The notes beneath the pieces are model-generated. The model searched no databases and had not been told where the DNA came from. It saw only the letters and a program-made list of their open reading frames with translations. From Octopus vulgaris (lineage: Eukaryota), in NCBI GenBank assembly GCA_951406725.2, contig OX597815.1:153946001-154010000 (forward strand): a stretch of 64,000 nt of DNA, written 5' to 3'. Positions 3,831 to 63,538 of the stretch are shown here, piece after piece (the stretch's first letter is position 1; each line of letters opens with the position of its first letter). Made by a program: the position numbers and the translations under genes.

Positions 3831-5982
3831 GTAATAAATGAAAAACAAAACATGAATGCAAAAATTCATTAACAGTTATAATGTGAAACACGTGAAATAT
3901 TTATTCCTGCTCATCCCAATACATAATTAGAAAAAATATTTGACTTAACATGAATGAAAAAATGTCGCCTAATAGAAGCAAGATGAAATTTTCTGCACTT
4001 ATACAGTCAGTATATAAATGTATTTGGAATTATATTATGTTGCTATTCATTTAGGTGCTTTTAACACTTAATTTCATTTCTATTTCTTTTTGTAATTGAC
4101 TTCATTTTTCTCGTAATATGTTGCTCTGCCTGCATAAGGCATATTGAATATAACACAACAAAATGACTTAAGTTGAATATAAATGATGATCAGCTATATA
4201 AGTTTCCCAATATATGAAAGAAAAAATTAGGAAAGAAAAAAGAATAAATATTAATGATTGTTTTTTTTTTATCTGACTTAACTTTGATATATACTTCGAT
4301 CTTTGTACCTCCAATAATTTCTGAGATAACAGGTTGGACACTTTAGCAAATAATCAAAGAAAGGATCAGCTCAGAACTGTTGTGCTAGTAGTTTTTGTAC
4401 CATTTTGTGAGAATAAATGTTGTGGTATACAAAAGTAGTTTGCCATATATCTTGTTTTTGAAAAAAATATTTATTTATGTAATAAGAAAAGATGTGTGTC
4501 ACTGCCATTATTTTGTAGTACTGAATGAAATCGCTGTATCGACATAAAAAATGACCTAAGCAATATAATTCTAAAGTACTTTTTACAGTAAAACTATTCA
4601 ATACTTGCTGGCTCACATCACCTGGTCATAAACAGGTACCGTATGGCTGAGTATTTTACTATACTAACAACCATGATTACCCTTTTATTGACGAATGCTT
4701 CGTATTATTGAGCTCAAGATTTCGTATTAACCCAGTAAAGGGATGAGAACATTTTACAGAATTCTTCAGAATTCTGCAGAACTCTCCTCTGAAGATTGTA
4801 CAGACATTTCATCGATAGAATCACAAATAGTTGCTCACAATTTGATAGGGATGCTTATTTTATTTACATCATCCTTTTCCGATCACTTTGAAAAATCTGT
4901 CTGATATCAATCAATTCCAGACACAATATGTTATATTCGAAAACTTGCCTTTGTATTTTACTAACTCATACATATGATATTTTATGTTTATATTTTGAGT
5001 AAAAGATTAAATGAAACCCTCCTATATTTCATCGCAATACTTTCCCTTCAAAGGACTCAGTACGAAACGCCAGAACTCACGTCTCATGATACATGAATCC
5101 TATTAACATTAAATTTTTAGTTCCGATGTAAACTGTTACTAGTTTATTCCAGATTCTCCATTTTCTCTTCTCCTGTTAGATTAAAAGATCGGATATTGCC
5201 AGTATCAATAATGTCACTCAGCTGCACAAACCCTTAATAAATAGAAAATATACAGTTCAATATACAGCTCTCGCTCCAAGATTTGCGATCGATTGTTCGG
5301 CTAAAATGATTAATCAAACATTTTACTAAAAAGTGAGATGAAGACATTTGTGTTAACAGATAATTTACTGCTAGTTTCGAATCTCACATTTATGAATTCA
5401 ACTATCACTTGAACTTGATATTAAATTTCATCCTCGTATTATTGATTAAATAAGAACCAAGTTCACTGCGAAAAATATAACGTAACTGTAAACCTATTCC
5501 ATCCTTATTATTTCGTTTACATGAATGACAGTATATTCATCTACAAGAAAAGAATAAATTAATGTGTGCTGTTGCGTATAAGGTTTTAATATTAAAAGAG
5601 TTACGAGATACTTGTTTTAATGCACATGTCCAGCTGATTTACAGCTAGAATGCAGAACCTGCCTGTATATATTGACACCTCCATGTTTTTCACACACATG
5701 ATACAATGTATGATAAATGATTTTTCAGTTTCCTTTTATTTAGATGTAATTTTTGAAGGAGTAGTATAAGATGAACGAATCTCACATATTGACAAACACG
5801 CAAACACAAAAACACGCACATATATAGACACATATATTACACAACTGAAAATTGTACCACCCTGGTTTCAAGATTGGTTACTTAGCAGTTTGAAACTTCG
5901 TTCAGCTGTGAAATCTATATTTGCACGAAAAGAAAACAATAACTGTAAAGCCGTCAATATTTTTACTATTCAATTCATACAG

Positions 5983-6078
5983 GATATGTATATAATCGTA
6001 AGTGAAGATCACGTATGGATTTGGGTTGGACGCTTAGTACCGAAAACAGCACGTCGAGAAGCAATGAATAACGCTGTT
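5983..6078 (+). CDS. Villin-like exon 3 (G3): DMYIIVSEDHVWIWVGRLVPKTARREAMNNAV
   Basis: catacAG acceptor, GTGAGT donor, 96 nt phase 0-0. D.YI...W.W.G...R.EAM gelsolin-repeat pattern. Confidence 0.92.
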
Positions 6079-7148
6079 GTGAGTAAAACTAGCTTTTATA
6101 TTTCCACTCAATGAAAATATTAAAAAACGAAATATTTAACATGTTCTCTTCTGTTGTTTCACACCAATAAACACAATCATTGTTTCTGTGACACACCTGT
6201 GCTTTTAGTGGCATATAGGACTACTTTATGGAAACATGCCTTTCACCTTTTTAAAGGAGTAGGATGGGTAGGAGGATGATTGGTTGTTATTTCTAGCAAG
6301 TAGATCGACCACATGTATACTTCATCTGTATATTTCTGACCAATAAGCATTTCTGAGATTGAGAGCCGAGATGATACTGCGTCGCCCGAAGAGTTCACGC
6401 TTCGTATCTCATCTTTGATTAGGTCCCTTATGACTTATATTCGTGAGAAAGAATATCGTTGATCGCTCGTGACTGAATTCATGACCAACGACGCAATCAA
6501 GATTCACAGCACTGTTGAAAGAATGCTAAACGCTAGCCTTTTGAAAGCTTGTATTCTATCCACCTTGATCGTTCCATTCCAATCTTCCGAGAATTTTTTT
6601 GTTTTAATTGCTTAAATCAAGCGAGAAATTTTTGCAGAGTTTCCGAGACTTGATTAGGAATGGAGAATTATCCTCCGAACGAAGATTTAAGATTTAATCT
6701 GAACGATTGTAACATAGTGGACTCTGCTAATGTCACCCAAGCGTGTTATATTAGATCGGACGACCGATTAAGCATATCGCTTTTGTGCCATGTGCAAACA
6801 GCCGTTATAAAAATATCTATTTCAAATACTAACACGATTTGTATCAAGTGTTTGCTTTAAGAAAACATGTACAGATGGATTAGACATCGTATAACGATTG
6901 TTTTCATACTGTTGGGTCAGTGGAGATCTCCGTTTCGATGGACAGTCAAGTTTGCATTGTTTCTAAGAAAACAGTCATAGTAACCTCTACAAGTAATTTG
7001 AAAACTGGTTTGCTTGTTTTCCCGAGAAAAATATTAAGTGTCGTAATATTACTCTCATTCGAATTATAAATTCCAGTTGCTTAAAATTTTAGATACAAAA
7101 CTGGAAATGATTATCGTTGTGACTGACATGTAAAATGTTCATTTTCAG

Positions 7149-7284
7149 GGTTTTTCTAAAAAGAAGAATGCAGATTTATGTCAAGTAATTCGAGTCATTG
7201 AAAATGAGGAAACTGAAGATTTCAAGTATTTATTTCATAATTGGCCGGAACCATCTCGGAGAGGAAACTCAAAAATTAAGATAG
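7149..7284 (+). CDS. Villin-like exon 4 (G3 end, G3-G4 linker): GFSKKKNADLCQVIRVIENEETEDFKYLFHNWPEPSRRGNSKIKI
   Basis: ttttcAG acceptor, G|GTATAT donor. V.RV.E..E...FK.LF..W motif ends G3. Confidence 0.92.
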
Positions 7285-7488
7285 GTATATTGTTATTATT
7301 TAAAAGAATTACTTAAATTACTTAACATAGACGACAGAACCAGAACATTTATGTGTGCTGGGGGTATATTTCTATGGTTTATGTTGATCACGTACATAAG
7401 AGTATCATTTCAACGACATCGAAAGAAGGAAAAGTAAAATTAGTTTAGGTATAAATTCAGAATCCATTTTGTCCGTGTCTATCAACCA

Positions 7489-7703
7489 GAGCTGGCAGAA
7501 ACGTTAGCACGCCGGGCGAAATACTTAGCGGTATTTCGTTGTAAGTTCAAATTCCGCCGAGGTTGACTTTGCCTTTCATCTTTTCGGGGTCGATAAACTA
7601 AGTACCAGTTCCGCACTGGGGTCGATGTAATCGACTCAATACCTATGTCTGTCCTTGTTTGTCCCCTCTATGTTTAGCCCCTTGTGGGTAATAAAGAAAT
7701 AGG
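7489..7703 (+). mobile_element. tRNA-derived SINE family A with 9-bp TSD
   Basis: GAGCTGGCAGAA..GTTCAAATTCC (A/B-box-like). TATCAACCA is duplicated at 7480-7488 and 7704-7712. Confidence 0.85.
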
Positions 7704-8140
7704 TATCAACCATTCTGTCAAAATATACAGTTATATAGGAGAGTGTAAGTAAACCTTGATTGAGGACACACAGTCACAATCAACTTGAATCCAGAGAGCT
7801 ACATTGTACCATATTATTCAATATAGCATTTCCGGTATCATTTGAAGGAGGTGTGTGGGCTATTTCTAGTTGACAATTGCTCACGTTGTTCTTAAATGAT
7901 TAAATGGTTAGGACAGCTAATAAACTGCAGATGGTTAAAATAATGCAAAAGCATACTTGGAATTCTATCCAGAGTTGTTAAAAGAATAGAGATCAAACGA
8001 TTAATCAAACAGTCAATTAGTTAATTAGTTAGATAGTTAACCAAGTGGAAAGAGAAATAAAGTACAATAAAACCAATGCATGTAATGTCTCTTCCGAAAT
8101 AAAAAAAAAAGTAATTTAACATAGATTGATATTTTCAAAT

Positions 8141-8543
8141 AGCGGCAGTGTGGTAAGTAGCCTGCTTACCAACCACATAGTGCCGGGTTCCGTTCCACTG
8201 CGTGGAAACTTGGGCAAGTGTCTTCTACTCTATCCTCGGGCCGACCAAAGCCTTGTGAGTGGATTTGGTAGATGGAAACTGGAAGAAGCCCGTCGTATAT
8301 GTATTTATATATGTATATGTATGTGTGTATATATTTGTGTGTCTGTGTTTGTCCCCCCCAACATCGCTTGACAACTGCTGCTGGAGTGTTTACGCCCCCG
8401 TAACTTAGCGGTTCGGCAAAAGAGGCCGATAAAATACGTACTAGCCTTACAACGAATAAGCTCTGGGGTCGATTTGCTCGACTAAAGGCGATGCTCCAGC
8501 ATAGCCGCAGTCAAATGACTGAAACAAGTAAAAATAAAAGAGT
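8141..8543 (+). mobile_element. SINE family B copy
   Basis: Colinear with 37836-38267. Confidence 0.85.
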
Positions 8544-9012
8544 ATATTTTTCTATTACATATTTGATATATTCTTTTAAGTTATATTCCCCAGCATATTT
8601 TATTACAGAATCGCATTTTAATGCTCCGTATAATAACTATATAAAACATAAATATATATAAGAAATATATGATATATTTGTCTAGTGTTGGACATGCAGA
8701 TATGCAGATAACATTTTGGAATTATGTAATTTCTAATACAGCTATAACAAAACTAGGATAAAATTTTATCAATATATTATTTAAATGATATGCCAAAAAG
8801 TGAGTTAACGAATTCTTTATATGAATAGATATATCTAAGTTAATTTCTCTTTCATTCTGCAGAGAGTTAATTTATCATTGGACTTAGAATATGATATATG
8901 TATTCAACCACAAGGGACATATATGAAAATATAAAAAAATGAGAAAAACAGCATAACTCTTTTGATTATCTTTTACATATAGCTTGAATATTTATCTATC
9001 TAGCCAGCTCTC

Positions 9013-32977: not shown

Positions 32978-33049
32978 GTCAGAGTAATTCAAGGAAAAGA
33001 ACCGCCACATTTGATGACCATATTTAAAGGGAAAATGGTTATTCTTCTG
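32978..33049 (+). CDS. Villin-like exon 8 (G4 end): VRVIQGKEPPHLMTIFKGKMVILL
   Basis: ttttacAG acceptor, GTATGT donor. Canonical RV.QGKEP.H...IF.GKM motif. Confidence 0.97.
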
Positions 33050-33802
33050 GTATGTCTAACTTTGAGATTCTGTAATACTTGAAATTGTTTAAAGAGTGTT
33101 ATTTAATGGTGAACACCGTGAACATTCTTTGTTATGTTGGGTTTACTTACCTGCTCTATACAACACCGTTAAGCTATTGGGAAACGGTTTTGAAATGTGA
33201 GTTTTGATTCCTGTGTGAACTAGTGTACTGAACCCGCTGTTCATTCCATAATCTTTAGCTAACACCACTACTTGCAATAAATTTATGTTTCTTAGAATGT
33301 GGTACAACCGAAACTGAAAGTCCAGACTTCGGCAAAATTATTTTACTCTGGTAAGAAAATACTTATAGAATAATTAATTGTTCAAAGAGGATTGCGTGTG
33401 ATGGTTCACTTCGTTTCAGTTCACTTCGAGGATGACCAAATGAACGGACCCTGATGAGGCTGCACCGAAAATATTGCAAGGTTACATTTAGAACAGTGAG
33501 TAGTTGCTGCAGCGGAAACACGTGTAGGTCATTATAATATGCTGTATATAGCTGTAAAATAAAGTTTATGGATGTGCGAATCTCCATTATCATTAATATA
33601 TACTCCAGACAATTTTTAGCGTCCAGCGAAGAGTGCATGGTATTACTAATCAAAAGAATTCACTGAGCGACCAACTAAGTGTAGTCACAGACATTAGACA
33701 CAGATCGTTGTGGCTAGCCATCAACTGAAACTTAACTGAGAGCTAATATAGTATCCGCTCGGATAATATATCCCTCCACGCACACACACTAATATATATA
33801 TG

Positions 33803-33850
<48 letters not shown>

Positions 33851-34015
33851 AAGTAATGTTCATAGCCACTTAAACATGACTGTCCGTTCGAACGGATTTT
33901 ACTACGATTGTTTAATCCAAGAAGATATCTCCTCTAGCTGGTTAATGATGCGCAGCTGCATCCGAGATATTGCGAGCAAGGGAGCGAACCCCTAATACCT
34001 TCAAGCGACGGGAGC

Positions 34016-34061
34016 AGTAGACCAGCCTGGTTACGGGCTATTTCCGCTTCTCTTCAGTACT
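34016..34061 (-). ncRNA. Hammerhead copy of the 35271 family with a GAAA>GTAA core mutation
   Basis: Minus strand AGTA-CTGAAGA-GAAGCGGAAATAGCCC-GTAA-CCAGGCTGGT-C-TACT. Confidence 0.65.
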
Positions 34062-34574
34062 CGACACCTCGTCTGCTAGAGATTAATTCTTTATCATGAT
34101 AATACAATATCAATACATAGAAGGGGCAATATAGGACGTTACAAACAATTTGTGTTTATGAGTTCGTTTAATGAGATTCTAAAAATATGATGATTTATAT
34201 TAGATATAATCAAAATTTTCCACTAAAAATTTTACACTTTGGCCGTGAAGTCCACCGGCTACACCGTACGCCTTTACTACGTATCAATTAAGCAGGGTCA
34301 TTCACACCCAACTTCCTTTCCACATCCTTTCATCTTTTTCCGTATACACTTTACGACAAGCGTCTTTTCTCCAGCCCTATCTTCCTCTTCAGATGATATC
34401 TGAAGTAATATAGCAAATCAAGGTCGGGGATATATATTCCCGTCGCGACTCCTTTCATTCTAGTTTTTCATATACACTCTTTCAACACTACAACTGAGCT
34501 TAAAAAAACATGTCTCCCCTTCCTTTGATAGTCTGGGTGCGGTGTAATCTTAATCATGCACTCAGCCGATAGCT

Positions 34575-34850
34575 GTACTCTTCTTAGATGCGGTTCCTGG
34601 CAGCAGACAGAGCGCCTTACAAGAGGCTTTCCTCCCTTCCACAATAAGCGGAGAAGGAGGCGCTCCAATTTGTTTAGCCACGAGTCGGAGCAAGGAACAA
34701 CGGTTACGTGGTAGGCGATTACAGATGAAGTAAACATCTGTACCACCTCCGCCCTTCCTTTCAAGGATAGAGCCCGTCCGGACCAAGTCCGAACTAGAGC
34801 TTCCACCGTCTGCCACCTCGCTCCAATTCTTCTCAGTTTGGAAGTCCGGT
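34575..34850 (-). mobile_element. L1/Tx1-clade LINE ORF2 fragment
   Basis: WQTVEALVRTWSGRALSLKGRAEVVQMF...LERLLLRLLWKGGKPLVRRSVCCQ carries the W..R.LSL.GR motif after RT. Confidence 0.8.
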
Positions 34851-34886
34851 ATACACACGTACACACACACATACGCACACACATTA

Positions 34887-34935
<49 letters not shown>

Positions 34936-35270
34936 AGTAATGTTCGTAGCCACTTCAACATGGCTGTCCGTTCGAACGGATTTTACTACGATTTTTTAAT
35001 CCAAGAGGACATCTCATGGTTGTTAACGATGCATAGCTGCATCCCAGATATTGCGAGTAGAGAAACGAACCCCTGCCACCTGCTAACGTCGCTTTAAATT
35101 ATGTATAATGCAATCTCTAGCAGACGAGGTATCCAGTATTGAAGAGGGGTAGAAATAGCTGGTCTGCTGGTCCTGTCGCACGCACACACACACACACATA
35201 CACACACACACACACATACACACACATACACACGCACACATACACACACACATCTCTAGCTGAGGTGTCC

Positions 35271-35316
35271 AGTACTGATGAGAGGCAGAAATAGCCCGAA
35301 ACCAGGTTGGTCTGCT
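35271..35316 (+). ncRNA. Type I hammerhead ribozyme, apparently intact (GUC site, predicted cut after 35312)
   Basis: Stem I AGTA/TGCT; core CTGATGA (35275-81); stem II G(A)GGC-AGAAATA-GCCC; GAAA; stem III ACCA-GGT-TGGT; C17. Confidence 0.8.
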
Positions 35317-35365
35317 CGTCCCGTCGCGCGCGCAAGCGCACACACACCTGTACGTATACACACAG

Positions 35366-35443
<78 letters not shown>

Positions 35444-35951
35444 GTATATTGTGTATGTTATACCACATGTAATTTTCCAGTTGACAAAAATAGCAGCATG
35501 ACTGTCTTTGATGCATTTAGATTTAGTACTATACACATTATAGAACTATTCTAATCTTATTAGTATTTCGTATTCCATAATACTGCATATAACAACTATT
35601 GCGAAACACCAATTCTATTTTATAACTCTCACCGTTCTCTCTTTCCTTCTGTCTTTCTTGTCTTTCCCCCTTTCTTTCTTTGAAAAATCGAAATAGAAAG
35701 AAATTATAATTAATTTGAAATGATAACAATGTTGACTAGCTACTTCATTTCTCTTGTATAACAGAGGGATGGGTGAAAACTATTTCATCTTATAGAATTA
35801 AATACAAGATAATTAATATTTAATTTTTCTTATGTACCTACGTCCGAAAACAACATGCGTACGTGTTTCTTCAACTACGTGCCTCATCACGATAGATTAA
35901 CTGTCACCTTCAGTTTTTTATATTCGTATTATACTCTTCGCAGTAAATCAG

Positions 35952-36058
<107 letters not shown>

Positions 36059-36150
36059 GTGCTTACATTTTTGTATTTTCCTATCTATCCATCTATTTAT
36101 CTATCAATCTATGTATCTATTTCTATGTACTTACATCTATATATCTTCTC

Positions 36151-36246
<96 letters not shown>

Positions 36247-36476
36247 AAGATAGATAGATGTAAGTACTCATTCCTAAACATCCAAAATGACGAAACTCCT
36301 GTGCCACGAGAACTGATTATTACACAATGTTCCTTGAAAAGCTAATTCAAATAGCGAAAACCGGTGAGATTTCACGACATCCATATAATATGTATATATT
36401 TATCAAAAGATATTAAACTATATGAAACGAAGGCATTTCTCTTCCACTTTTTATATATTTTTTTCTACATATTTTC

Positions 36477-36539
<63 letters not shown>

Positions 36540-36569
36540 CATACATACATACATACATACACACACACA

Positions 36570-36965
36570 TATTGGCTCAAAAGCAAATAGCAAGGCCATG
36601 TAGGGGGACATGGAGTTAAGTACAGGGTGGTGTTCATGTAAAGAGTTCAGGCCACTTGAGGTCAAGGGAAGCTTTGAACAAAGCGGTCGTCGGCATCTTC
36701 ACCATCTCGTCTGGCAGCTTGTTCCACGGATCCGCAACCCGGACGGAGAAAGCTCCTCTCCTTCGATTGAGATGAAATCGTCGCAGGTAGAGCTTTTCGG
36801 AATGACCCCGCAGCCGACGCTCTGGAGCAGGAGTGAAGAACAGCTCTTTCGAGAGGTTACATTTTCTGCTTATGATGTTGTGGGCGAGAATGAGATCACC
36901 ACGGCGACGGCGTTTTTCTAGAGAATAAAGGTCGAGCGTCCTCAGCCTTTCTTCATAGGACACAT
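36570..36965 (-). mobile_element. 5'-truncated CR1-clade LINE (ORF2 C-terminus plus short 3'UTR)
   Basis: Uninterrupted SYEERLRTLDLYSLEKRRRRGDLI...RGHSEKL...FSVRVADPWNKLP...FKASLD, followed by a short UTR and a microsatellite. Confidence 0.9.
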
Positions 36966-37835
36966 TTTTGAGACCATGAATTATTATTATAACCTTTGGA
37001 GATATACCTCCGATTTGATGAACTATTGATTACATGAGGAACGAAATATAGAGCTGGATAACATTCATAACTGAAAATGAATTTCTCAAGGAGGCAAAAC
37101 ATGCAATAAAGAAAGAAATTATAAACTGTAGAGTTTAATCATAAAAGCAAAATGTGGAAAAAAATGTGAGATACAGGGACTGAGGAATTTCTGTAAGTGC
37201 GCGCGCGCACACACACACATACATACACACACAAACACACAAACAAACACGCACGCACGCACGCACAGACACGAGCACGCGCACACACGCACACACACAC
37301 AAATTTGTTGTGCAATATATGAAATCATAGAATTCTATGCTAATCATAAAAACGCTCTTCTAGTGAACCCGGCTAAATATGGAAGGGTGAAATCCGGTAG
37401 ATTCAATCTGTGTGATGAATTCATGAGGAATTTATACATAAAAAAAAGTCAAGAGGTATGGGAGATGCATATATTTATTTCACCAGTCGATATCCATAGA
37501 ATGACGGCCGTTTTGTGGCCTTCATTATGTAATGATAACTTTAATGTATGATAAATCATTTTACATGTCTGCACCAATGTGCATGTTACACATTGCACAG
37601 CGCTATTATACATTTACAAATCAATGCAGATTTTCTCTGTTCCAAACGAGAAGGATTCTAAGCCTGTTATATGTTCCCTGATGAAGGAACTGTTTTTATG
37701 GGAGACGGACAGGAATACTTTATCCACCCTCAATAACATTTTCCATAAACGATCGTAGGATGAGTATTAGACTTTATCTCTGCCATGGAATGCTTTTAAC
37801 ATCTTTTAATTATGTATATTGTAACATATTGTCCA

Positions 37836-37999
37836 TAGGCGCAGGAGTGGCTGTGTGGTAAGTAGCTTGTTTACCAACCAGATGGTTCTGGGTTCAGTCC
37901 CACTGCATGGCACCTTGGGCAAGTGTCTTCTACTATAGCCTCGGGCCGACCAAAGCCTTGTGAATGGATTTGGTAGACGGAAACTGAAAGAAGCCCGTC

Positions 38000-38041
<42 letters not shown>

Positions 38042-38267
38042 GTGCGTGTGTGTGTGTCTGTGTTTGTCCCCTTAGCATTGCTTGACAACCGATGCTGGTG
38101 TGTTTATGTCCCCGTTACTTAGCGGTTCGGCAAAAGAGACCGATTGAATAAGTACTGGGCTTACAAAAGAATAAGTCCCGGGGTCGATTTGCTCGATTAA
38201 AGGCGATGCTCCAGCATGGCCGCAGTCAAATGACTGAAACAAGTAAAAGAGTAAAAGAGTAAAGAGT
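37836..38267 (+). mobile_element. tRNA-derived SINE family B (CORE-like CCTTGGGCAAGT segment, internal TA/TG microsatellite, AAAAGAGT tail), full length
   Basis: TGGCTGTGTGGTAAG (A box) and GGTTCAGTCCC (B box). Homologous copies at 1-228 (+, 3' half), 2645-2797 (-), 8141-8543 (+), 18523-18899 (-), 55491-55661 (-), 57835-58025 and 60136-60325 (+, internally deleted), 62487-62842 (-). Confidence 0.85.
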
Positions 38268-38541
38268 GTCTATAACTTTCTTCCTGCTAGTTTCTAAGAC
38301 GTATGTACCAAGGTCAGGCACTCGCTTACCATTTTATATTTTCATTATATATCCATATACTTTTTTTTATATGTTCATATGTATTTATATGTATATTTTT
38401 ATGCATTTGTATATTTTTGTGTAGTTTTGTGCATGTATATATTTTTTTACGGTTTTATAAGATTAGCCTTAAGTACTCCGATGTTATAAAAGAAACTGTT
38501 TATCGATTACCTGAACATTGGGTCTTCTACCATTGCCTATG

Positions 38542-38572
<31 letters not shown>

Positions 38573-38704
38573 ACATAAATGTGAAACAAGGTGGGAAAAG
38601 CATGACTCGAATACCGGAGGTAGAATAATATGCTTTATTAATAAAGCTGCAAAGGTATCACAAAAACTGTTACTCAGAGTCCCAAAATCCCGTTCATTTT
38701 TGTG

Positions 38705-38746
<42 letters not shown>

Positions 38747-39576
38747 GAATGATACCTATTTAGACCCATTAAATTGCACACACATCTATATATACATAAA
38801 TACGCATATGGATACACATATATGCATATGAGCGTAAGTATCACAAAAAAGGCACATACATACACACATATATACCTAGAGGCATGCAAACAGCTAACAA
38901 TGTACATGTGCACATGTAAATAATTTCGTCTGAAGCCCCGTGTCTTTGAAAATTTTCTGAAGCAGAGGAGTGCAGCTTTTAAACAAAATTCAAAAGCTCG
39001 GTACCTTTTAACCGACGATGTAATTGTCTTTTCTAACTCAACACCCGATTTCAAAACTATTTCTTACTCAGTATCAGCCGTCAGTTTCAGAACGTCATTT
39101 AGACAGATACTACATTCCCTCCTACTCACACATACAGGAATATACACACCCACAAATACAAACATATATGTACATACATGCATACACACAGACATCCGCC
39201 AGTGCATACACACACACACGCGCGCATATACACACACACACACAGAAACATACGCAGGTATACACATGCACGCATGTACAAACATATAAATGCATACACA
39301 CACACACACACACACAGGCATACAGATATACGCACTCACACGTGCGCGTGCCCACACACTCACATACACGCACGCACGCACACACACACACATACACACA
39401 TGGACATGAATAATCACCTAGTTATATAAGGAAATAAAACAATTTTTACATTTCATTTCTCAAATGAAATAATGAAGCATTTTTTTTCTGAAATTGTTAT
39501 CCTGTAATTACCATAACCGAATGTCCGATTCATTTTGATGAGATTTCATCCACAATTTCCTTTTCAACTTAAATAG

Positions 39577-39687
39577 GGAAGCCACGAAAAGTGGGAAAAG
39601 AAAAGCAGTTTATTGGCTTCTGGCCCTGGACGTCATTACATGCTCCATGTACGCGGGACATCGGACTATAACACGAAAGCAGTTCAG
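39577..39687 (+). CDS. Villin-like exon 9 (G5 start): GSHEKWEKKSSLLASGPGRHYMLHVRGTSDYNTKAVQ
   Basis: aaatAG acceptor, CAG|GTATGT donor. L.VRGT...NTKAV motif. Confidence 0.95.
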
Positions 39688-39727
39688 GTATGTAATTTAT
39701 TTATTTATATATGTATTTATATTCTAA

Positions 39728-40240
39728 CTAGCAGTATCGCCCGGCGTTGCTCGGGTTTGTAAGGGAAATAACTATATAAGCATTTTTAGAAAGTTACTTC
39801 CCTTATAGATGCCAATTCGGGCTTTCTTAGCCATTTCTGTTTTGGTGTCTTCAAGCCATGAAGTCGTTGTTCTAAAAGAACGCTGGTCTCCTTGACAACG
39901 CTTTACGACGTTGATTTCCTTACACTCCCTTCCCCACAGCTTCACGAGGGGGGGAAGAAGGGGGAGAAGCAAACAGGTGCAGGTGTGACCATGGACGCCA
40001 ACTCCGCCGCCATCGACACACGAAACATTATGCATTAAAATGGAATAAAAGATGATGTTAAATTATTTTTAAAATCGTAGACTCATCGTAGACGCGCGCT
40101 AATAGCCAGACGGGCTCGATATGAATCACGACTATAAGATACCCGAATTTGGTTAAACTGCACCGCAAAATGTGGGAGTAGTTAGGAATCTAAATCGAAG
40201 GGGACAGACACTCACACAACTACAGTTTTCTATATATAGA
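39728..40240 (-). mobile_element. Non-autonomous Helitron family 1, copy A
   Basis: Minus strand 5'-TCTATATATA...CCCGAGCAACGCCGGG hairpin-CGATACTG-CTAG-3', between A and T, no TSD. Confidence 0.85.
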
Positions 40241-40242
40241 TA

Positions 40243-40755
40243 CTAGCAGTATCGCCCGGCGTTGCTCGGGTTTGTAAGGGAAATAACTATATAAGCATTT
40301 TTAGAGAGTTACTTCCTTTATAGATGCCAATTTGGGCTTTCTTAGCCATTTCTGTTTTGGTGTCTTCAAGCCATGAAGTCGTTGTTCTAAAAGAACGCTG
40401 GTTTCCTTCACAACGCATTACGACGTTGATTTCTTTACACTCCCTTCCCCACAGCTTCACGAGGGAGGGAAGGGGAGAAGCAAACAGGTGCAGCTGTGAG
40501 CGTGGACGCCAACTCCGCCGCCATCGACATACGATGCATTTTATGCATTAAAATGGAATAAAAAATGATGTTAAATTATTTTTAAAATCGTAGACTCATC
40601 GTTGACGCGCGCTAATAGTCAGACGGGCTCGATATAAATCACGACTATAAGATACCCGAATTTGGTTAAACTGCACCGCAAAATGTGGGAGGAGTTACGA
40701 ATCTAAATCGAAGGGGACAGACACTCACACAACTAGAGTTTTATATATATATAGA
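40243..40755 (-). mobile_element. Non-autonomous Helitron family 1, copy B (tandem with A)
   Basis: Same termini and highly similar body. Separated from copy A by TA. Confidence 0.85.
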
Positions 40756-40904
40756 TATGAACCATAGCGTCGCTGGTTACAGATCATGTCCATCAAGTGT
40801 TTCGTATGTTTCTGACTCCGTTTATGACTAGAGAGTGTTTTTAACTTGACATCTAGATGTGGGTCATATATTACTTTCAAATTTTGGCACAAAGAAATCA
40901 TTTT

Positions 40905-42579: not shown

Positions 42580-43235
42580 ATATTCTCCGCCCAGTACTGC
42601 TAAGATGTTCGTGGGAATTGAGTCTTCATATATAATTTAAATATCATCCGACCGTGTCGTTCTTAATCTACCTGTAGTAGGTCTCCCGCCCATTCGCTCG
42701 GCTTGAGAAATCCACCTGGCAATTCTTTCCGGTGACATTCGAATGGCATGTTCATCGTACCGGAGCTGAAACCTCTCAGTGCTGAGATATAGTGGTTCGA
42801 ACTGGTTAGACACACCGGTGCCGGCGCTACGTATCCGGTTGAGTAACGTTACTCCAGCGATGCTTCGGAAGAAACCAATTTCGACCGCTTGTATTAACGT
42901 ATTTTTTCGGCTATTACCCACTATTGATGATAAAGATATGCACGAATTGAAGATAAAAAAGGTTGGCTCTTTTACCAGCTTCTTCTCTTTTGAGCATCGG
43001 AACTGGTGCTGGTCCATTACTGTACCAGCATTTGTAGTTCTACCATCCAATGCAGCTGTCTACCTCCTATCACTCATGAATGTGGCCTTGAAAATCCTAA
43101 ACATCTTCATTTTTCTCAGTAATGGTCCATTAAAATGTAGAGGATACTGGGAAGTCTTTCTTGAGCGGACCGATGTCTCAGATTTTGCAGCACTAATTCT
43201 CATCCCTCCCTCGCAGCACTCGACATTTAGTTTAA
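42580..43235 (-). mobile_element. RTE-clade LINE 3' remnant (Rex3/Expander-like)
   Basis: Minus translations VECCEGGMRISAAKSE and QAVEIGFFRSIAGVTLLNRIRS..EPLYL..ERFQLRY..H.IRMSPER...GGRPT.GRLRT. Confidence 0.75.
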
Positions 43236-44836: not shown

Positions 44837-46278
44837 ATTAGATATCTTGGTCAGGGTATAAAACAGCAACAAGAATAAGAAACTACAGAATCAACCGCAT
44901 TAGCAGCCGTTAATCTGCCTTTGATCTTAACAGAGATAATATATTAAAGATCCAATATATCGCATTCATGGCATTTCGAATAATTAAAAGAGTACTGGAG
45001 ATAATTGCTGTAATGTTATAAGAATATAGCTTCGGCTGAAAGCGTTGTGTGGACGTGGTTATTTATACATACATCCAATTATATAAATGCGTATATAAGC
45101 TCTGAGTGTGCAATTCTATCAGCATAGTCTGCAGTTGATCGGTGGTTTCAACGATGAGTAAAATGTCATCTGCGAATCGGAGGTTAGTTAGTTGATCGCT
45201 ATTGATGCTAACGCAGCATTTCCAATCAATAATCTTGATGACCATTTCTTGACATGCAGTAAAGAGCTTTGGATAGACGGTGGTACCTCCTTGCTTGTCA
45301 CCCTTCTCAATTGGGACCTTTTCTGCTGGTGATAACAGAATTATATCTGTTGTGCATCCAAAGTTCGCACATATGGGCAGTTTGATCTATTGCACCTCGA
45401 CACCTTGCATTTCCAGAGATTTCAACACTGCATTCACCTCGACCTTATCGAAGGACTTTTCACAATCAACAAAAGCCACATACAGAGGAAGCTTGTATTT
45501 GTTCTCTTGTCTATCATCAGTGTTAGAATGAATATGTGATCTGTCATACTAGATCACATACACACACCTATACATATTATATGAAACCAAATAATATCAG
45601 CTTTAGCTTCACATCTCATGTATATTGTTTAAATCTATTATATATGTTGGCATATAAATGGCAATGCTAACGAAAATAAATATTTGTTGAAATTACAAAG
45701 ATTATGTGACAGAAATCAGTAGAAATGGTTTCAGTTTAAAATACAATGGTAGGCATACTGATTTTCAGCATTTAATTATATTTGCTAAAATGATTTAATT
45801 GCAGTATTCATTCTCATTTCCCCCAACCTTCTCATTTAATTAATCTGGTTTCAAACCAACAAAAGACATTCTATAGTGTATAGCTATCTCCTAGAAATAG
45901 CACCCAAATCTCTCCTAGATAGAATTTTAGTGTTGCAAAGAAACCATATTAAGTAAAATAGACATACGCATCTCTTAAAAGAGGAAAGGGTCAGTCCCGA
46001 AAAGCATTTCATTAGATATCTTGATCGGAGTATAAAGTAACAAGAATAATAAGAAACTATAAAAGCAACTGCATTAATAACCGGTATTCTGCCTTTGATC
46101 TCACCAGAGATAATACATTAAAGATCCAATATATCGCATTCATGGCATTTTGAATAATTAAAAGAGTATTGGAGATGATAACCGCAATGTAAGCTGCTAG
46201 CGAACGGATATAGTTTCGGCTGAAAGTGTTGTGTGGATGTGGTTATTTATACATAATCCAATTATATAGATGCTTATA
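44837..46278 (+). repeat. Diverged direct repeat pair of ~260 bp (44837-45095 and 46011-46278)
   Basis: Shared TAGATATCTTG...ATTAAAGATCCAATATATCGCATTCATGGCATTT...TTCGGCTGAAAG...ATCCAATTATATA. Confidence 0.85.
45105..45545 (-). mobile_element. RTE-clade reverse transcriptase fragment
   Basis: YKLPLYVAFVDCEKSFDKVE and LTNLRFADDILLI (FADD catalytic motif). Confidence 0.85.
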
Positions 46279-47510: not shown

Positions 47511-47717
47511 GTACATAAACACACACGCACACATATAAGTATATCGTATTTTACAAGCAAGAAAGTTCGAACTCAGTAAGACCGTGTAGACAGCACAAAG
47601 ATTGGGTATCATAACCTTATAAGACAGAAAAATGTTCCCAGCAGACTGGAAGCTGTACTCCTCAGACACCAAACACATTCGACGCTTCCAAATGATGTCA
47701 CATAGTTATATATAATA

Positions 47718-48233
47718 CTAGCAGTATCGCCCGGCGTTGCTCGGGTTTGTAAGGGAAATAACTATATAAGCATTTTTAGAGAGTTACTTCCTTTATAGAT
47801 GCCAATTCGGGCTTTCTTAGCCATTTCTGTTTTGGTGTCTTCAAGCCATGAAGTCGTTGTTCTAAAAGAACGCTGGTCTCCTTGACAACGCATTACGACG
47901 TTGATTTCCTTAAACTCCCTTCCCCACAGCTTCACGAGGGAGGGAAGAAGGGGAGAAGCAAACACAGGTGCAGGTGTTTGAGCGTGGACGCCAAATCAGC
48001 CGCCATCGACACACGAAAAATTATGCATTAAAATGGAATAAAAAATGATGTTAAATTATTTTTAAAATCGTAGACTCATCGTAGACGCGCGCTAATAGCC
48101 AGTCGGGCTTGATATTAATCACGACTATAAGATACCCGAATTTGGTTAAACTGCACCGCAAAATGTGGGAGGAGTTAGGAATCTAAATCGAAGGGGACAG
48201 ACACTCACACAACTACAGTTTTATATATATAGA
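47718..48233 (-). mobile_element. Non-autonomous Helitron family 1, copy C
   Basis: Same TC...hairpin...CTAG termini and body as 39728-40755. Confidence 0.85.
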
Positions 48234-48650
48234 TATGGTTGTGAACTCTCCTGCCATTAGCGACAGATCAAGGTTCTGCAGTGTCTTGGTGAATAACCTG
48301 ATTTGTTGGCGGTGATCGAATGTTTGTGCTATCTCAATACTGGAACTGAGTCTACTATCTTTTGACCTTGTGTGCAAGACTCTAACCATTAAGTCACGCA
48401 GAATCACAAAATAATGCTGAAATTAATTTTCCTACATTTACAGATTCAAAATATTTTGTATATGAAGTGTTATCGGAATTAGCGAAAACGGGGGCACCTT
48501 TTAAATACAACTCTTTAAAATATTACGACCTAATGCATACCCACCCACCCCGTCAAAGAACTGCACAAACAGTCTTCTCCCCACAAACATAATTTCGTCA
48601 TATTAAATATGACTGCATGCACTCGAACATGCTGAAGATGAATTTACACC

Positions 48651-57571: not shown

Positions 57572-58344
<773 letters not shown>

Positions 58345-59940: not shown

Positions 59941-60644
59941 GACTCTAAAGTATACAAACTTGATCCATATAGCAGACTGGCTAGAGTTTTATTTTTGTGT
60001 TTTTGAAGAAGCTGTCAGATGGTGCTTTTTCTAGGACGAAAACTGTTGCAATAGTTTGCACACACACACACGCACACACACACACGCACACACACACAAA
60101 CACACACACACATACACACACACGCACACACCACCATAGGCGTGGCTGTGTGGTAAGAAGTTTTCGTCCATGTACTTTATCCGTTCGACGAAAGAGACTA
60201 ATACAAGTACTAGGATTTAAAAAAAGAAATAAGCCTGGGGTCGATTTGCTCGACTAAAATCCTTCAAGGCAGTTCTCCAGAACGGCCGCAGTCAAATGAC
60301 TGAAACAAATAAGAAAGAATAAAAGTCTATATACATATTTTGTTTTCTACTCTAGGCACGAGGCCCGAATGTTTGTGGCGGGAGGGGGCATTCGATTTGA
60401 TCAACAACAGTATACAACTGGTACTTAATTTGTCGATCCCGAAAAGATGAAAGCCATAGTCGACTTCGGTCTAATTTGAATTCAGAACGTAAAGACACAC
60501 GAAATACCTATTTCTTTACTACCCACAGGGGGCTAAACACATATATATATATATTCGTGTGTAAGTGTATGAGTGTGTGTGTGTGTGTGTAAGATTTAGT
60601 TAAGTTAAAGACTTGTACATTCACTTTTCTTTTGTTATTTTGTC
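59941..60644 (+). repeat. Local duplication copy 2
   Basis: Matches 57572-58344 up to ...CTTTTGTT(A)TTTTGTC. Confidence 0.92.
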
Positions 60645-62910: not shown

Positions 62911-63538
62911 ACCTACAGATTTAAAAAATAATTTTTTGTAACTAAACACTTTCAAACTTCGGACACTGGTAGAATGTGTCATATAAAACATCTTTTAATG
63001 TCAACATTTTTGAGAAAAACTTATATTTACGAAGTTATTTCACGTTAAAGTTGTATTTCGGTAATTTCAACCAATCAACGATGTGTATTCAGCTGAATAA
63101 AATTTCTGCCGTTGTTTGTCAACAACAACTATCGGCTGTGTATTTTCCTTTTGTAACTGTTATTTATGACATCGTTCGTGCGTTTGCACTGGTTTTAGCT
63201 TTAAAGTTTTAGGGTTAGGTTTAAGGTTTTAGGGTTAGGGTTAGGGTTGGGTTTTAGAGTTAAGGTTTTAGGGTTAGGGTTGCCATAAATAACAGTGACA
63301 AACTAAAAATACACCACCGGAAGTTGATAAACACCAGCAGTAATTTTATTCAGTCGAATACATGTCATTGATTGGTTGAAATTACCGAAATAAGACTACT
63401 TTAACGTGAAATAACTTCGTAAATATAAGTTTCACTTAAAAATGCTAAGAATAAAAGATGTTTTATATGACACACTCTACCAGTGTCTGAAGTTTGAAAG
63501 TGTTTAGTTGCAAAAAATTATTTAAAACATTTGTAGGT
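62911..63538. mobile_element. MITE/fold-back element with ~210-bp TIRs and central degenerate TTAGGG repeats
   Basis: 62911-63125 is the imperfect reverse complement of 63323-63538. TTAGGG-like array at ~63208-63281. Confidence 0.85.

What the first reader, a model, noticed from the sequence alone, without database searches (positions are those of the whole stretch)
35112..35327. Intact GUC hammerhead on the sense strand of the villin-like intron, in a tandem, retrozyme-like ~75-nt unit
Seen: the unit ATCTCTAGC(AGA)YGAGGTRTCCAGTA-[HHR]-TGCTSGTCCYGTCGC occurs twice in tandem (35112-35179 and 35252-35327), separated by a (CA)-rich spacer. The second copy has a complete type I core (CUGAUGA/GAAA/GUC) and three stems, including a 4-bp stem III, so it may fold as a monomer. 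The first copy has lost the CCGAAACCAGG segment. The two GUC sites are 148 nt apart (35164 and 35312). Known: tandem type I HHR repeats in metazoans (non-LTR retrozymes, newt satellite 2, Schistosoma SMalpha) yield small self-cleaved or circular RNAs. Inference: this is a cephalopod retrozyme-like family, and the intact copy could cut the host pre-mRNA inside intron 33050-39576.
Basis: partly seen in the sequence, partly recalled or inferred. Interest (0 to 1): 0.82.

Follow-up and report, generated by a model that had tools for sequence, protein, structure and literature searches.

The report
Decayed hammerhead repeat in villin intron
A self-cutting 'hammerhead' RNA motif sits in an intron of a villin-like gene as one of three damaged copies of a repeat that also occurs on dozens of other genomic contigs; this copy keeps its catalytic letters but is predicted to misfold, so it is likely a relic of a jumping element rather than a switch that cuts the gene's RNA.

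Summary
The letters are as described. Copy 2 (35252-35327) has a complete type I hammerhead core on the sense strand of a villin/gelsolin-family intron; a descriptor finds it once in the window and in 0 of 300 shuffles. Contigs of three genomic runs (370-583 laid) show a dispersed, diverged family. Its majority sequence has a complete core at the positions shown and a perfect 6-bp stem I. The ribozyme continues into a ~150-nt arm ending in (CA)n, and about 20 contigs per run carry an imperfect inverted copy of that arm upstream, so the real unit is likely a long foldback, not a 75-nt or 148-nt repeat. The window copies look neutrally decayed: 2 of 15 substitutions hit the core, 2.3 expected. 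Copy 2 has a C.C mismatch in stem I, and its active fold is predicted 11.2 kcal/mol above the ensemble, against at most 4.5 in 94 control hammerheads. Verdict: a new member of a known kind (retrozyme-type, probably Penelope-mobilised), likely inert here. Cleavage and circles were not testable.

The parts
32978..33049 (+). Villin/gelsolin-family exon upstream of the intron (24 codons)
   Evidence: PDB villin-1, E 1.9e-7; matches residues 479-500 of 9jus villin
33050..39576 (+). GT-AG intron, phase 0, 6527 nt; the GUC of copy 2 lies 2262 nt from the donor and 4264 nt from the acceptor
39577..39687 (+). Villin-family exon downstream of the intron
   Evidence: PDB villin, E 3.4e-5; residues 514-537 of 9jus
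33777..33850 (.). Composite (CA)n(TA)n(TG)n microsatellite at the 3' end of copy 3's arm; self-complementary
   Evidence: predicted hairpin -35.5 kcal/mol
33851..34004 (-). ~150-nt arm 3' of hammerhead copy 3; non-coding; its first part extends stem I
   Evidence: contiguous with the ribozyme in several other contigs (table 8); the right-hand copy of the arm gave no credible protein homologue
34005..34084 (-).
   Evidence: the family majority has the intact letters at 34033, 34062, 34018, 34014
34085..34278 (-). Presumed 3' UTR of the L1/Tx1-type LINE, joined directly to the 5' end of copy 3; the same junction occurs in diverged contigs
   Evidence: ORF match ends about 34279; records 15, 23, 32
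34279..34849 (-). 5'-truncated, internally deleted ORF2 end of an L1/Tx1-type LINE (relatives carry RVT_1 + zf-RVT)
   Evidence: the clade name Tx1 is recalled from sequence style, no tree was built
34849..34934 (.). Second composite (CA)n(TA)n(TG)n microsatellite hairpin
   Evidence: -57.7 kcal/mol; source of the spurious miRNA rows
34935..35091 (.). Second copy of the arm, same genomic orientation as 33851-34004 and so inverted relative to copies 1 and 2: either the upstream arm of copy 1 or the 3' arm of an inverted truncated copy
   Evidence: 84% column identity; the junction to copy 1 appears to recur in independent contigs (joint 33931-34084, X1 record 2)
35112..35179 (+). Hammerhead copy 1: C3-to-U, 12-nt loss of GAAA and stem III; perfect 6-bp stem I; GUC at 35162-35164
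35180..35251 (+). (CA)-rich spacer
35252..35327 (+). Hammerhead copy 2: complete core, bulged stem II, 4-bp near-palindromic stem III, C.C mismatch in stem I, 3-nt deletion in the outer helix; putative cut after 35312
35328..35443 (+). (CG)/(CA) and (CTAT)n microsatellite tail

Best explanation
The motif is one of three damaged copies of a dispersed, non-coding hammerhead repeat, likely a retrozyme-type retroelement mobilised by Penelope-like machinery, and copy 2 is predicted to misfold and so likely does not cut the villin pre-mRNA to a meaningful extent. Shown: the family is multi-copy and diverged; its majority sequence has the intact letters at every core or stem position where copy 3 is broken and a row is shown; the ribozyme is followed by a ~150-nt arm and a microsatellite; an imperfect inverted arm lies upstream in about 20 contigs per run. 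Inferred: source elements were transcribed, self-cleaved after GUC (helped by the palindromic stem III, as double hammerheads in tandem transcripts), possibly circularised as a long hairpin, reverse-transcribed in trans and inserted at microsatellites as truncated tandem and inverted pieces. Here this left arm + copy 1 + copy 2 on one strand and LINE piece + copy 3 + arm on the other, which have since decayed neutrally.
For:: 583, 427 and 370 contigs laid in three DNA-type runs, most under 90% alike to copy 3 (350 of 583, 266 of 427, 239 of 370). A13 is intact in 54, 59 and 43 contigs (98, 98, 94% of depth) and ranks 1st, 2nd and 2nd of the 19 positions compared. Loose ends behind 34083 share one consensus in 20, 23 and 19 contigs; compared by hand, 25 of 30 letters match the inverted arm (using family-majority letters), and 3 of the 5 substitutions give G.U pairs on the ribozyme strand. 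Opposite-strand joints 33963/33994/34010 to 34083 agree. Neutral decay: 15 substitutions in 222 sites over the three copies, 2 in the core against 2.3 expected; chance that a copy keeps 12 core sites is 0.43. Misfolding: 11.2 kcal/mol against median 1.0, maximum 4.5 in 94 control hammerheads, 0 of 94 as high; 15.6 in the 1.6-kb block. The double-hammerhead form halves the gap, 5.1 against 9.9 per ribozyme; stem III self-duplex -12.0 and -16.6. Partial tandems, adjacent inverted truncated copies and microsatellite bias are described for Penelope-like elements (PMC8557442, passages); animal retrozymes are proposed as their non-autonomous derivatives, with monomers common, about 43% of copies intronic in Xenopus and 1 of 9 dimers cleaving (bioRxiv 10.64898/2026.07.22.740005).
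Against: No Penelope RT or GIY-YIG sequence was found next to the element, and no genome was available, so the mobilising partner is inferred. No head-to-tail array of complete units was seen: of the 15 joints shown (5 hidden) only one goes back, by 101 nt. The conservation test is incomplete: 40 variant rows were shown and 120 hidden, and only one core position can be ranked. No compensatory double change among the 3 window copies. The folding controls are monomer-type hammerheads from viral contigs, not animal ones; nearest-neighbour energies ignore tertiary contacts, Mg2+ and co-transcriptional kinetics. Most invertebrate retrozyme hammerheads are reported to cleave well as monomers (PMC7761336, passage). 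The full-length family form with both arms was not folded, so whether it favours the active fold is open.
Confidence: 0.62

Rival explanations
1. The pieces are pseudo-LTR (3' end) remnants of an autonomous Penelope-like element rather than an independent non-autonomous family; the inverted arm would be the usual inverted 5'-truncated copy.
For: Tandem plus inverted arrangement and microsatellite flanks match the described insertion pattern; a bulge in helix II and a palindromic helix III occur in the D. virilis Penelope hammerhead (PMC4209133); Penelope-like elements cover 6.83% of the O. vulgaris genome (PMC13282606 supplement), if the host is an octopus.
Against: The family ribozyme is canonical (6-bp helix I with internal loop, 4-bp helix III), not the minimal form typical of metazoan Penelope elements. 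The upstream arm has one shared, systematically different sequence in about 20 contigs per run, unlike fresh inversions. The two frames of the arm that were searched gave no credible protein homologue.
Confidence: 0.14
2. Copy 2 is an active intronic ribozyme that cuts the villin pre-mRNA, either at its own GUC (35312) or, as a discontinuous hammerhead, at copy 1's GUC (35164).
For: Complete core on the sense strand. Copy 1's 3' strand is a better substrate for copy 2's core than its own: 6-bp stem I and 5-bp stem III, nested topology, 6.1-9.3 kcal/mol above the ensemble against 11.2-13.6 for the own site in comparable windows. The 3-nt deletion in copy 2 removes a 9-bp pairing that blocks the cut site in copy 1. 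In the 1.6-kb fold the antisense copy 3 pairs with copy 1, not with copy 2. Precedents: intronic hammerheads of amniotes and the discontinuous Clec2 hammerhead (PMC6155905, passages).
Against: 0 of 94 controls misfold as badly. In the whole block copy 1 is paired with antisense copy 3 (mean probability 0.93), which puts the hybrid 45 kcal/mol above the minimum. No core protection among local copies. The element is multi-copy and decayed, unlike conserved single-copy intronic hammerheads.
Confidence: 0.12
3. The hammerhead element is tied to the L1/Tx1-type LINE: either the LINE inserts specifically just 5' of the ribozyme, or LINE end + ribozyme + arm travel as one composite.
For: The LINE's presumed 3' UTR abuts copy 3 at 34085/34084. 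Diverged contigs in all three DNA-type runs share this junction (records 15, 23, 32; 37-46 differences). All three window copies start within one base of the same position. Tx1-clade elements often target other repeats and microsatellites (PMC4494074, passages).
Against: Depth falls about tenfold past 34083, so most copies lack the LINE. No target duplication of 6 nt or more at the LINE junctions. The upstream arm is not found on the LINE's 5' side.
Confidence: 0.07
4. The ribozyme + (CA)n unit of 148 nt is itself a minimal retrozyme that makes small circles, or the foldback is a MITE-like DNA transposon that merely carries a hammerhead.
For: Two GUC sites 148 nt apart; copies 1 and 2 both end at the same base before (CA)n; retrozyme families as short as 51 bp are reported. 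Long inverted arms also fit a MITE.
Against: Copy 1's own core is broken, so a second cut needs the disfavoured hybrid. Only two units, with no shared derived substitutions. The family has long arms, and internal deletions of 54-114 nt are seen in 7 of the 15 joints shown, so loss of the arm is simpler. G.U-biased arm differences and microsatellite ends favour an RNA intermediate over a MITE.
Confidence: 0.05

Closest known systems
Metazoan non-LTR retrozymes (coral, mussel, axolotl; Cervera & de la Pena 2020, PMC7229834, parts 2-4 of 6 read; Li et al. 2026, bioRxiv 10.64898/2026.07.22.740005, parts 1-3 of 5 read)
   Same: Canonical type I hammerhead, non-coding body, GC under 50% (47% over 33851-34083), many dispersed copies, solo and intronic copies common, predicted strong self-pairing.
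   Different: No array of complete units seen; long imperfect inverted arms with a (CA)n(TA)n(TG)n hairpin end; local copies broken; no circular RNA shown.
Hammerheads in pseudo-LTRs of Penelope-like elements (PMC4209133, parts 1-2 of 4 read; PMC8557442, passages)
   Same: Palindromic helix III, bulge in helix II, partial-tandem and inverted insertion pattern, microsatellite association, heterogeneous decayed copies.
   Different: Canonical rather than minimal architecture; no RT/GIY-YIG ORF found in contact.
Conserved intronic hammerheads of amniotes (RECK/HH9 and others) and the discontinuous Clec2 hammerhead (PMC6155905, passages; Rfam RF02275)
   Same: Type I fold on the sense strand of an intron; the only Rfam row listed for the 81-nt stretch is HH9; a discontinuous fold is geometrically possible.
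   Different: Score 13.1 against 52 bits; multi-copy, decaying, no sign of purifying selection at this locus.
Rfam-annotated hammerheads in the giant squid genome (235 Hammerhead_1 loci; PMC6962438, passage)
   Same: Shows that type I hammerheads are already counted in a cephalopod genome.
   Different: That passage gives a count only; whether it is this family was not testable.

Membership tests
Type I hammerhead ribozyme (copy 2) | Core CUGANGA / GAAA / UH with G10.1-C11.1 | tested here: met
Type I hammerhead ribozyme (copy 2) | Three helices around the core | tested here: met
   93% of cells paired against 30-48% for slid partners; stem I broken after 4 bp, stem II bulged
Type I hammerhead ribozyme (copy 2) | Active fold is accessible as a monomer | tested here: not met
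   11.2 kcal/mol against at most 4.5 in 94 controls (in silico only)
Type I hammerhead ribozyme (copy 2) | Rfam hammerhead model at gathering score | tested here: not met
   (13.1 of 52 bits)
Type I hammerhead ribozyme (copy 2) | Self-cleavage after GUC | not testable with these tools
   only contigs, no raw reads
Non-LTR retrozyme | Multi-copy family with a canonical type I hammerhead | tested here: met
   43-59 contigs per run with intact A13; majority restores stem I
Non-LTR retrozyme | Two or more consecutive units each with a complete hammerhead (criterion for 'active' in Li et al. 2026) | tested here: not met
   at this locus copy 1 is broken; elsewhere in the genome not examinable
Non-LTR retrozyme | Unit of about 150-450 bp, no ORF, GC under 50% | tested here: inconclusive
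   233 nt for ribozyme + arm, 47% GC; no protein homologue in 2 of 6 frames searched; full length of the upstream arm unknown
Non-LTR retrozyme | Expressed as linear and circular monomers | not testable with these tools
   no RNA holder on record and contigs only
Penelope-like element pseudo-LTR | Linked to an RT + GIY-YIG ORF | tested here: inconclusive
   none adjacent in the window; the adjacent ORF is an L1/Tx1-type LINE; no genome held
Penelope-like element pseudo-LTR | Minimal hammerhead (long helix II, short helix I, little or no helix III) | tested here: not met
   against the description
Penelope-like element pseudo-LTR | Partial tandems, adjacent inverted truncated copy, microsatellite flanks | tested here: met
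   resemblance only
Conserved intronic hammerhead (HH9/RECK type) | Single-copy and conserved across species | tested here: not met
   multi-copy; no core protection among local copies; orthologues of copy 2 itself were not examined

The most novel reading that the evidence does not exclude
The family is a rod-shaped, viroid-like retrozyme: a hammerhead at one end, 100-150-bp imperfect G.U-rich arms and a (CA)n(TA)n(TG)n hairpin closing the other end, giving a circle of roughly 400-450 nt, with an L1/Tx1-type LINE that inserts at a fixed point just 5' of the ribozyme; young copies elsewhere in the genome would still make such circles.
Probability: 0.22. Interest if true: 0.6.

Novelty: new member of a known kind. 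Interest (0 to 1): 0.3.

Why it matters
As it stands it adds one more animal family to the known hammerhead-bearing repeats, and shows that an intact core in an intron is what neutral decay of such a family leaves in roughly four of ten copies. It would matter more if the foldback architecture holds: it would give an animal retrozyme a rod-like, microsatellite-capped RNA close to viroid shape, and a LINE apparently joined at a fixed point of it. My literature searches found no description of an octopus hammerhead family; most subscription papers and Repbase were not searchable.

Tried and rejected
No whole genome is held, so copy number, arrays and flanks could not be counted directly. Pattern scans found no family member: 0 in metagenome contigs, 0 in viral contigs, 0 in prokaryote genomes; an arm 19-mer gave 4 metagenome loci that match over 21-28 nt only and are treated as chance. 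A LINE relative gave nothing in viral contigs. No RNA holder was listed; run X1 is only guessed to be RNA, and its 12 contigs say nothing on expression. One X1 contig begins at 34022, 3 nt from copy 3's cut position; contig ends cannot show RNA ends and that core is broken, so I rejected it as a cleavage signal. Summed depth divided by one locus-like contig gives 67-372 copy equivalents over the ribozyme and 391-818 at the arm peak, but the tool states that this is no copy number. The arm as coding sequence: the + frame gave 0 hits, a - frame gave 4 hits that are summed weak repeats in unrelated proteins. The idea that antisense copy 3 silences copy 2 (duplex -127 kcal/mol in isolation) was not borne out: in the 1.6-kb fold it pairs with copy 1. 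The hybrid hammerhead looked favourable locally and was disfavoured in the whole block. RNAalifold on the three copies returns the competing, inactive fold. nhmmer found no fourth copy in the window. No target duplication at the LINE ends; only a CA run is shared at the block ends. One search used a wrong frame (redone); the dimer structure held a non-pair (redone). miRNA rows are microsatellite hairpins. Earlier findings: none by sequence, by the first word set or by place. The supplement of PMC7229834 could not be read, bioRxiv supplements are closed, and PMC5785218 is not held; a cephalopod retrozyme could be listed there.

Full report
Observation. Copy 2 (35252-35327) has CUGAUGA at 35275-35281, GAAA at 35298-35301 and GUC at 35310-35312. 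A type I descriptor that checks all three stems finds this one site on both strands of the window and none in 300 of 300 dinucleotide shuffles. The flanking exons match solved villin and gelsolin chains in order, so the motif lies on the sense strand of the intron 33050-39576. Rfam support is weak: nothing at gathering score, and on the 81-nt stretch alone Hammerhead_HH9 at 13.1 of 52 bits.

A third copy lies on the minus strand at 34084-34005. It continues into a ~150-nt arm (34004-33851) and a composite (CA)n(TA)n(TG)n microsatellite. A second copy of arm and microsatellite lies at 34849-35091, head to head with copy 1. Between them is the 3' end of an L1/Tx1-type LINE: 5 relatives among 623 candidates, 4 of them with zf-RVT and 3 with RVT_1; the match runs 34849-34279 with an internal deletion. 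nhmmer finds no further copy in the window.

The family. No genome is held. I searched runs with 33852-34850 (24 listed, 12 holding part of it, all contigs) and laid 4 of them on 33852-34250 at 80% likeness. 583, 427 and 370 contigs were laid in the three DNA-type runs, under three organism codes, and 12 in a run guessed to be RNA. Most are under 90% alike to copy 3. Depth falls about tenfold past 34083, and several long contigs span ribozyme and arm together, so these form one element. Where copy 3 is broken, the majority has the intact letter: A13 in 54, 59 and 43 contigs (98, 98, 94% of depth), and the three stem I positions that give the perfect 6-bp helix seen in copy 1. The two positions at 34045 and 34048 agree with copy 2. 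A13 ranks 1st, 2nd and 2nd of the 19 positions I compared, a weak hint of selection in source elements; 40 variant rows were shown and 120 hidden, so the full conservation test was not possible. The position of copy 2's stem I mismatch is not among the 40 rows, so I infer that it is a private lesion. Contigs with only 5 differences over 315-371 nt in organisms B and C look like orthologues of copy 3, so that insertion likely predates their split; copy 2's orthologues were not examined.

The foldback. Loose ends behind 34083 share one consensus in 20, 23 and 19 contigs (agreement 0.63-0.68), against 45-57 contigs carrying the majority letter at 34062. Compared by hand, 25 of its 30 letters match an inverted copy of the arm at 33965-33996 (family-majority letters); 3 of the 5 substitutions give G.U pairs on the ribozyme strand and 1 on the other strand. 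Opposite-strand joints from 33963, 33994 and 34010 to 34083 extend the inverted match to at least about 33930. So in a third to a half of copies stem I is likely prolonged into a hairpin of 100 bp or more. The composite microsatellite is itself a hairpin. How far the upstream arm reaches is unknown. A minority of diverged contigs share the LINE-ribozyme junction (records 15, 23, 32), and internal deletions of 54-114 nt make up 7 of the 15 joints shown (5 hidden).

Is copy 2 active? Against the family majority the three copies carry 4, 5 and 6 substitutions in 76, 67 and 79 sites (counted by hand). Two of 15 hit the core, 2.3 are expected, and a copy keeps 12 core sites with probability 0.43; one intact core in three needs no selection. 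The predicted minimum-energy fold is not the hammerhead. Forcing the active fold costs 9.9-13.6 kcal/mol in five windows and 15.6 in the 1.6-kb block. As a control I took 127 viral-contig loci with a hammerhead pattern; 102 descriptor hits, 2 dropped for short flanks and 6 as duplicates, left 94, with median 1.0 and maximum 4.5 against 11.2 for copy 2. These controls are monomer-type and the model omits tertiary contacts. Stem III is near-palindromic, and a double hammerhead of two copy-2 molecules halves the gap to 5.1 per ribozyme, which fits a dimer design; no intact partner exists here. In favour of activity: copy 2's core pairs better with copy 1's GUC (6 + 5 bp; 6.1-9.3 kcal/mol), a discontinuous fold with a precedent in Clec2 (PMC6155905, passages). 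In the whole block, however, copy 1 pairs with antisense copy 3 (mean probability 0.93) and the hybrid costs 45 kcal/mol; copy 2 stays free of copy 3.

Mechanism. Shown: a multi-copy non-coding family with a canonical type I hammerhead, arms and microsatellite ends, broken local copies. Inferred: self-cleavage of source transcripts, possible circles, reverse transcription in trans, insertion at microsatellites as tandem and inverted fragments. The insertion pattern matches Penelope-like elements (PMC8557442, passages; PMC11167929, part 1 of 4), and retrozymes are proposed to derive from them (bioRxiv 10.64898/2026.07.22.740005, parts 1-3 of 5; PMC7229834, parts 2-4 of 6). No Penelope ORF was found in contact, so the partner is not shown. 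I put this reading at 0.62, a pseudo-LTR remnant at 0.14, an active cutter at 0.12, a LINE-tied element at 0.07 and a 148-nt mini-circle or MITE at 0.05.

Comparison and novelty. It works like a non-LTR retrozyme; strict membership fails here on the criterion of two consecutive complete ribozymes, and circles were not testable. It is not a minimal Penelope hammerhead (PMC4209133, parts 1-2 of 4) and not a conserved intronic one (passages). Hammerheads are already counted in giant squid (235 loci; PMC6962438, passage); the main text and the one supplement of a 2026 O. vulgaris repeat annotation have 0 occurrences of 'hammerhead' (PMC13282606). Eight searches found no description of this family; unread supplements and subscription papers may hold one. 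Tx1 target specificity is from PMC4494074 (passages); the clade name for this LINE is recalled, not tested by a tree. Verdict: real motif, new member of a known kind, likely inert at this locus; the foldback shape and the recurring LINE junction are the parts worth following. Interest 0.3.

Noticed in passing
window 34005-34083 with 35113-35179: Inverted copies 1.1 kb apart are predicted to form a long double-stranded stretch in the pre-mRNA (mean pairing probability 0.93), flanked by (TG)n/(CA)n pairing; a possible A-to-I editing substrate.
   Followed up: partly
window 34085-34849: L1/Tx1-type LINE end joined at the exact 5' edge of the ribozyme; the same junction appears in diverged contigs of three runs.
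   Followed up: partly
window 33917-33965: This part of the arm draws several times more depth than the ribozyme (42,916 against 4,374-8,848 in X2); it may be shared by both arms or by further families.
   Followed up: no
window 62911-63538: A ~630-nt element with ~260-nt inverted arms (84% identical) around a centre of TTAGGG-like repeats at 63195-63281.
   Followed up: no
window 39727-40759 and 47707-48237: A ~520-nt unit in tandem twice, with a third copy 8 kb away, 94-96% identical; looks like a young repeat.
   Followed up: no
window 57572-58344 and 59941-60644: Recent local duplication of about 700-770 nt, 97% identical.
   Followed up: no
window 36634-37029, 42637-43059, 45063-45386 (minus strand): Further LINE-like ORF fragments; only the last gave a weak RVT_1 match (E 6e-4).
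   Followed up: partly
L013, L034, L042, L046, L076, L084 (viral contigs): Two or three hammerhead patterns within 400-900 nt in single viral contigs; used only as folding controls.
   Followed up: no
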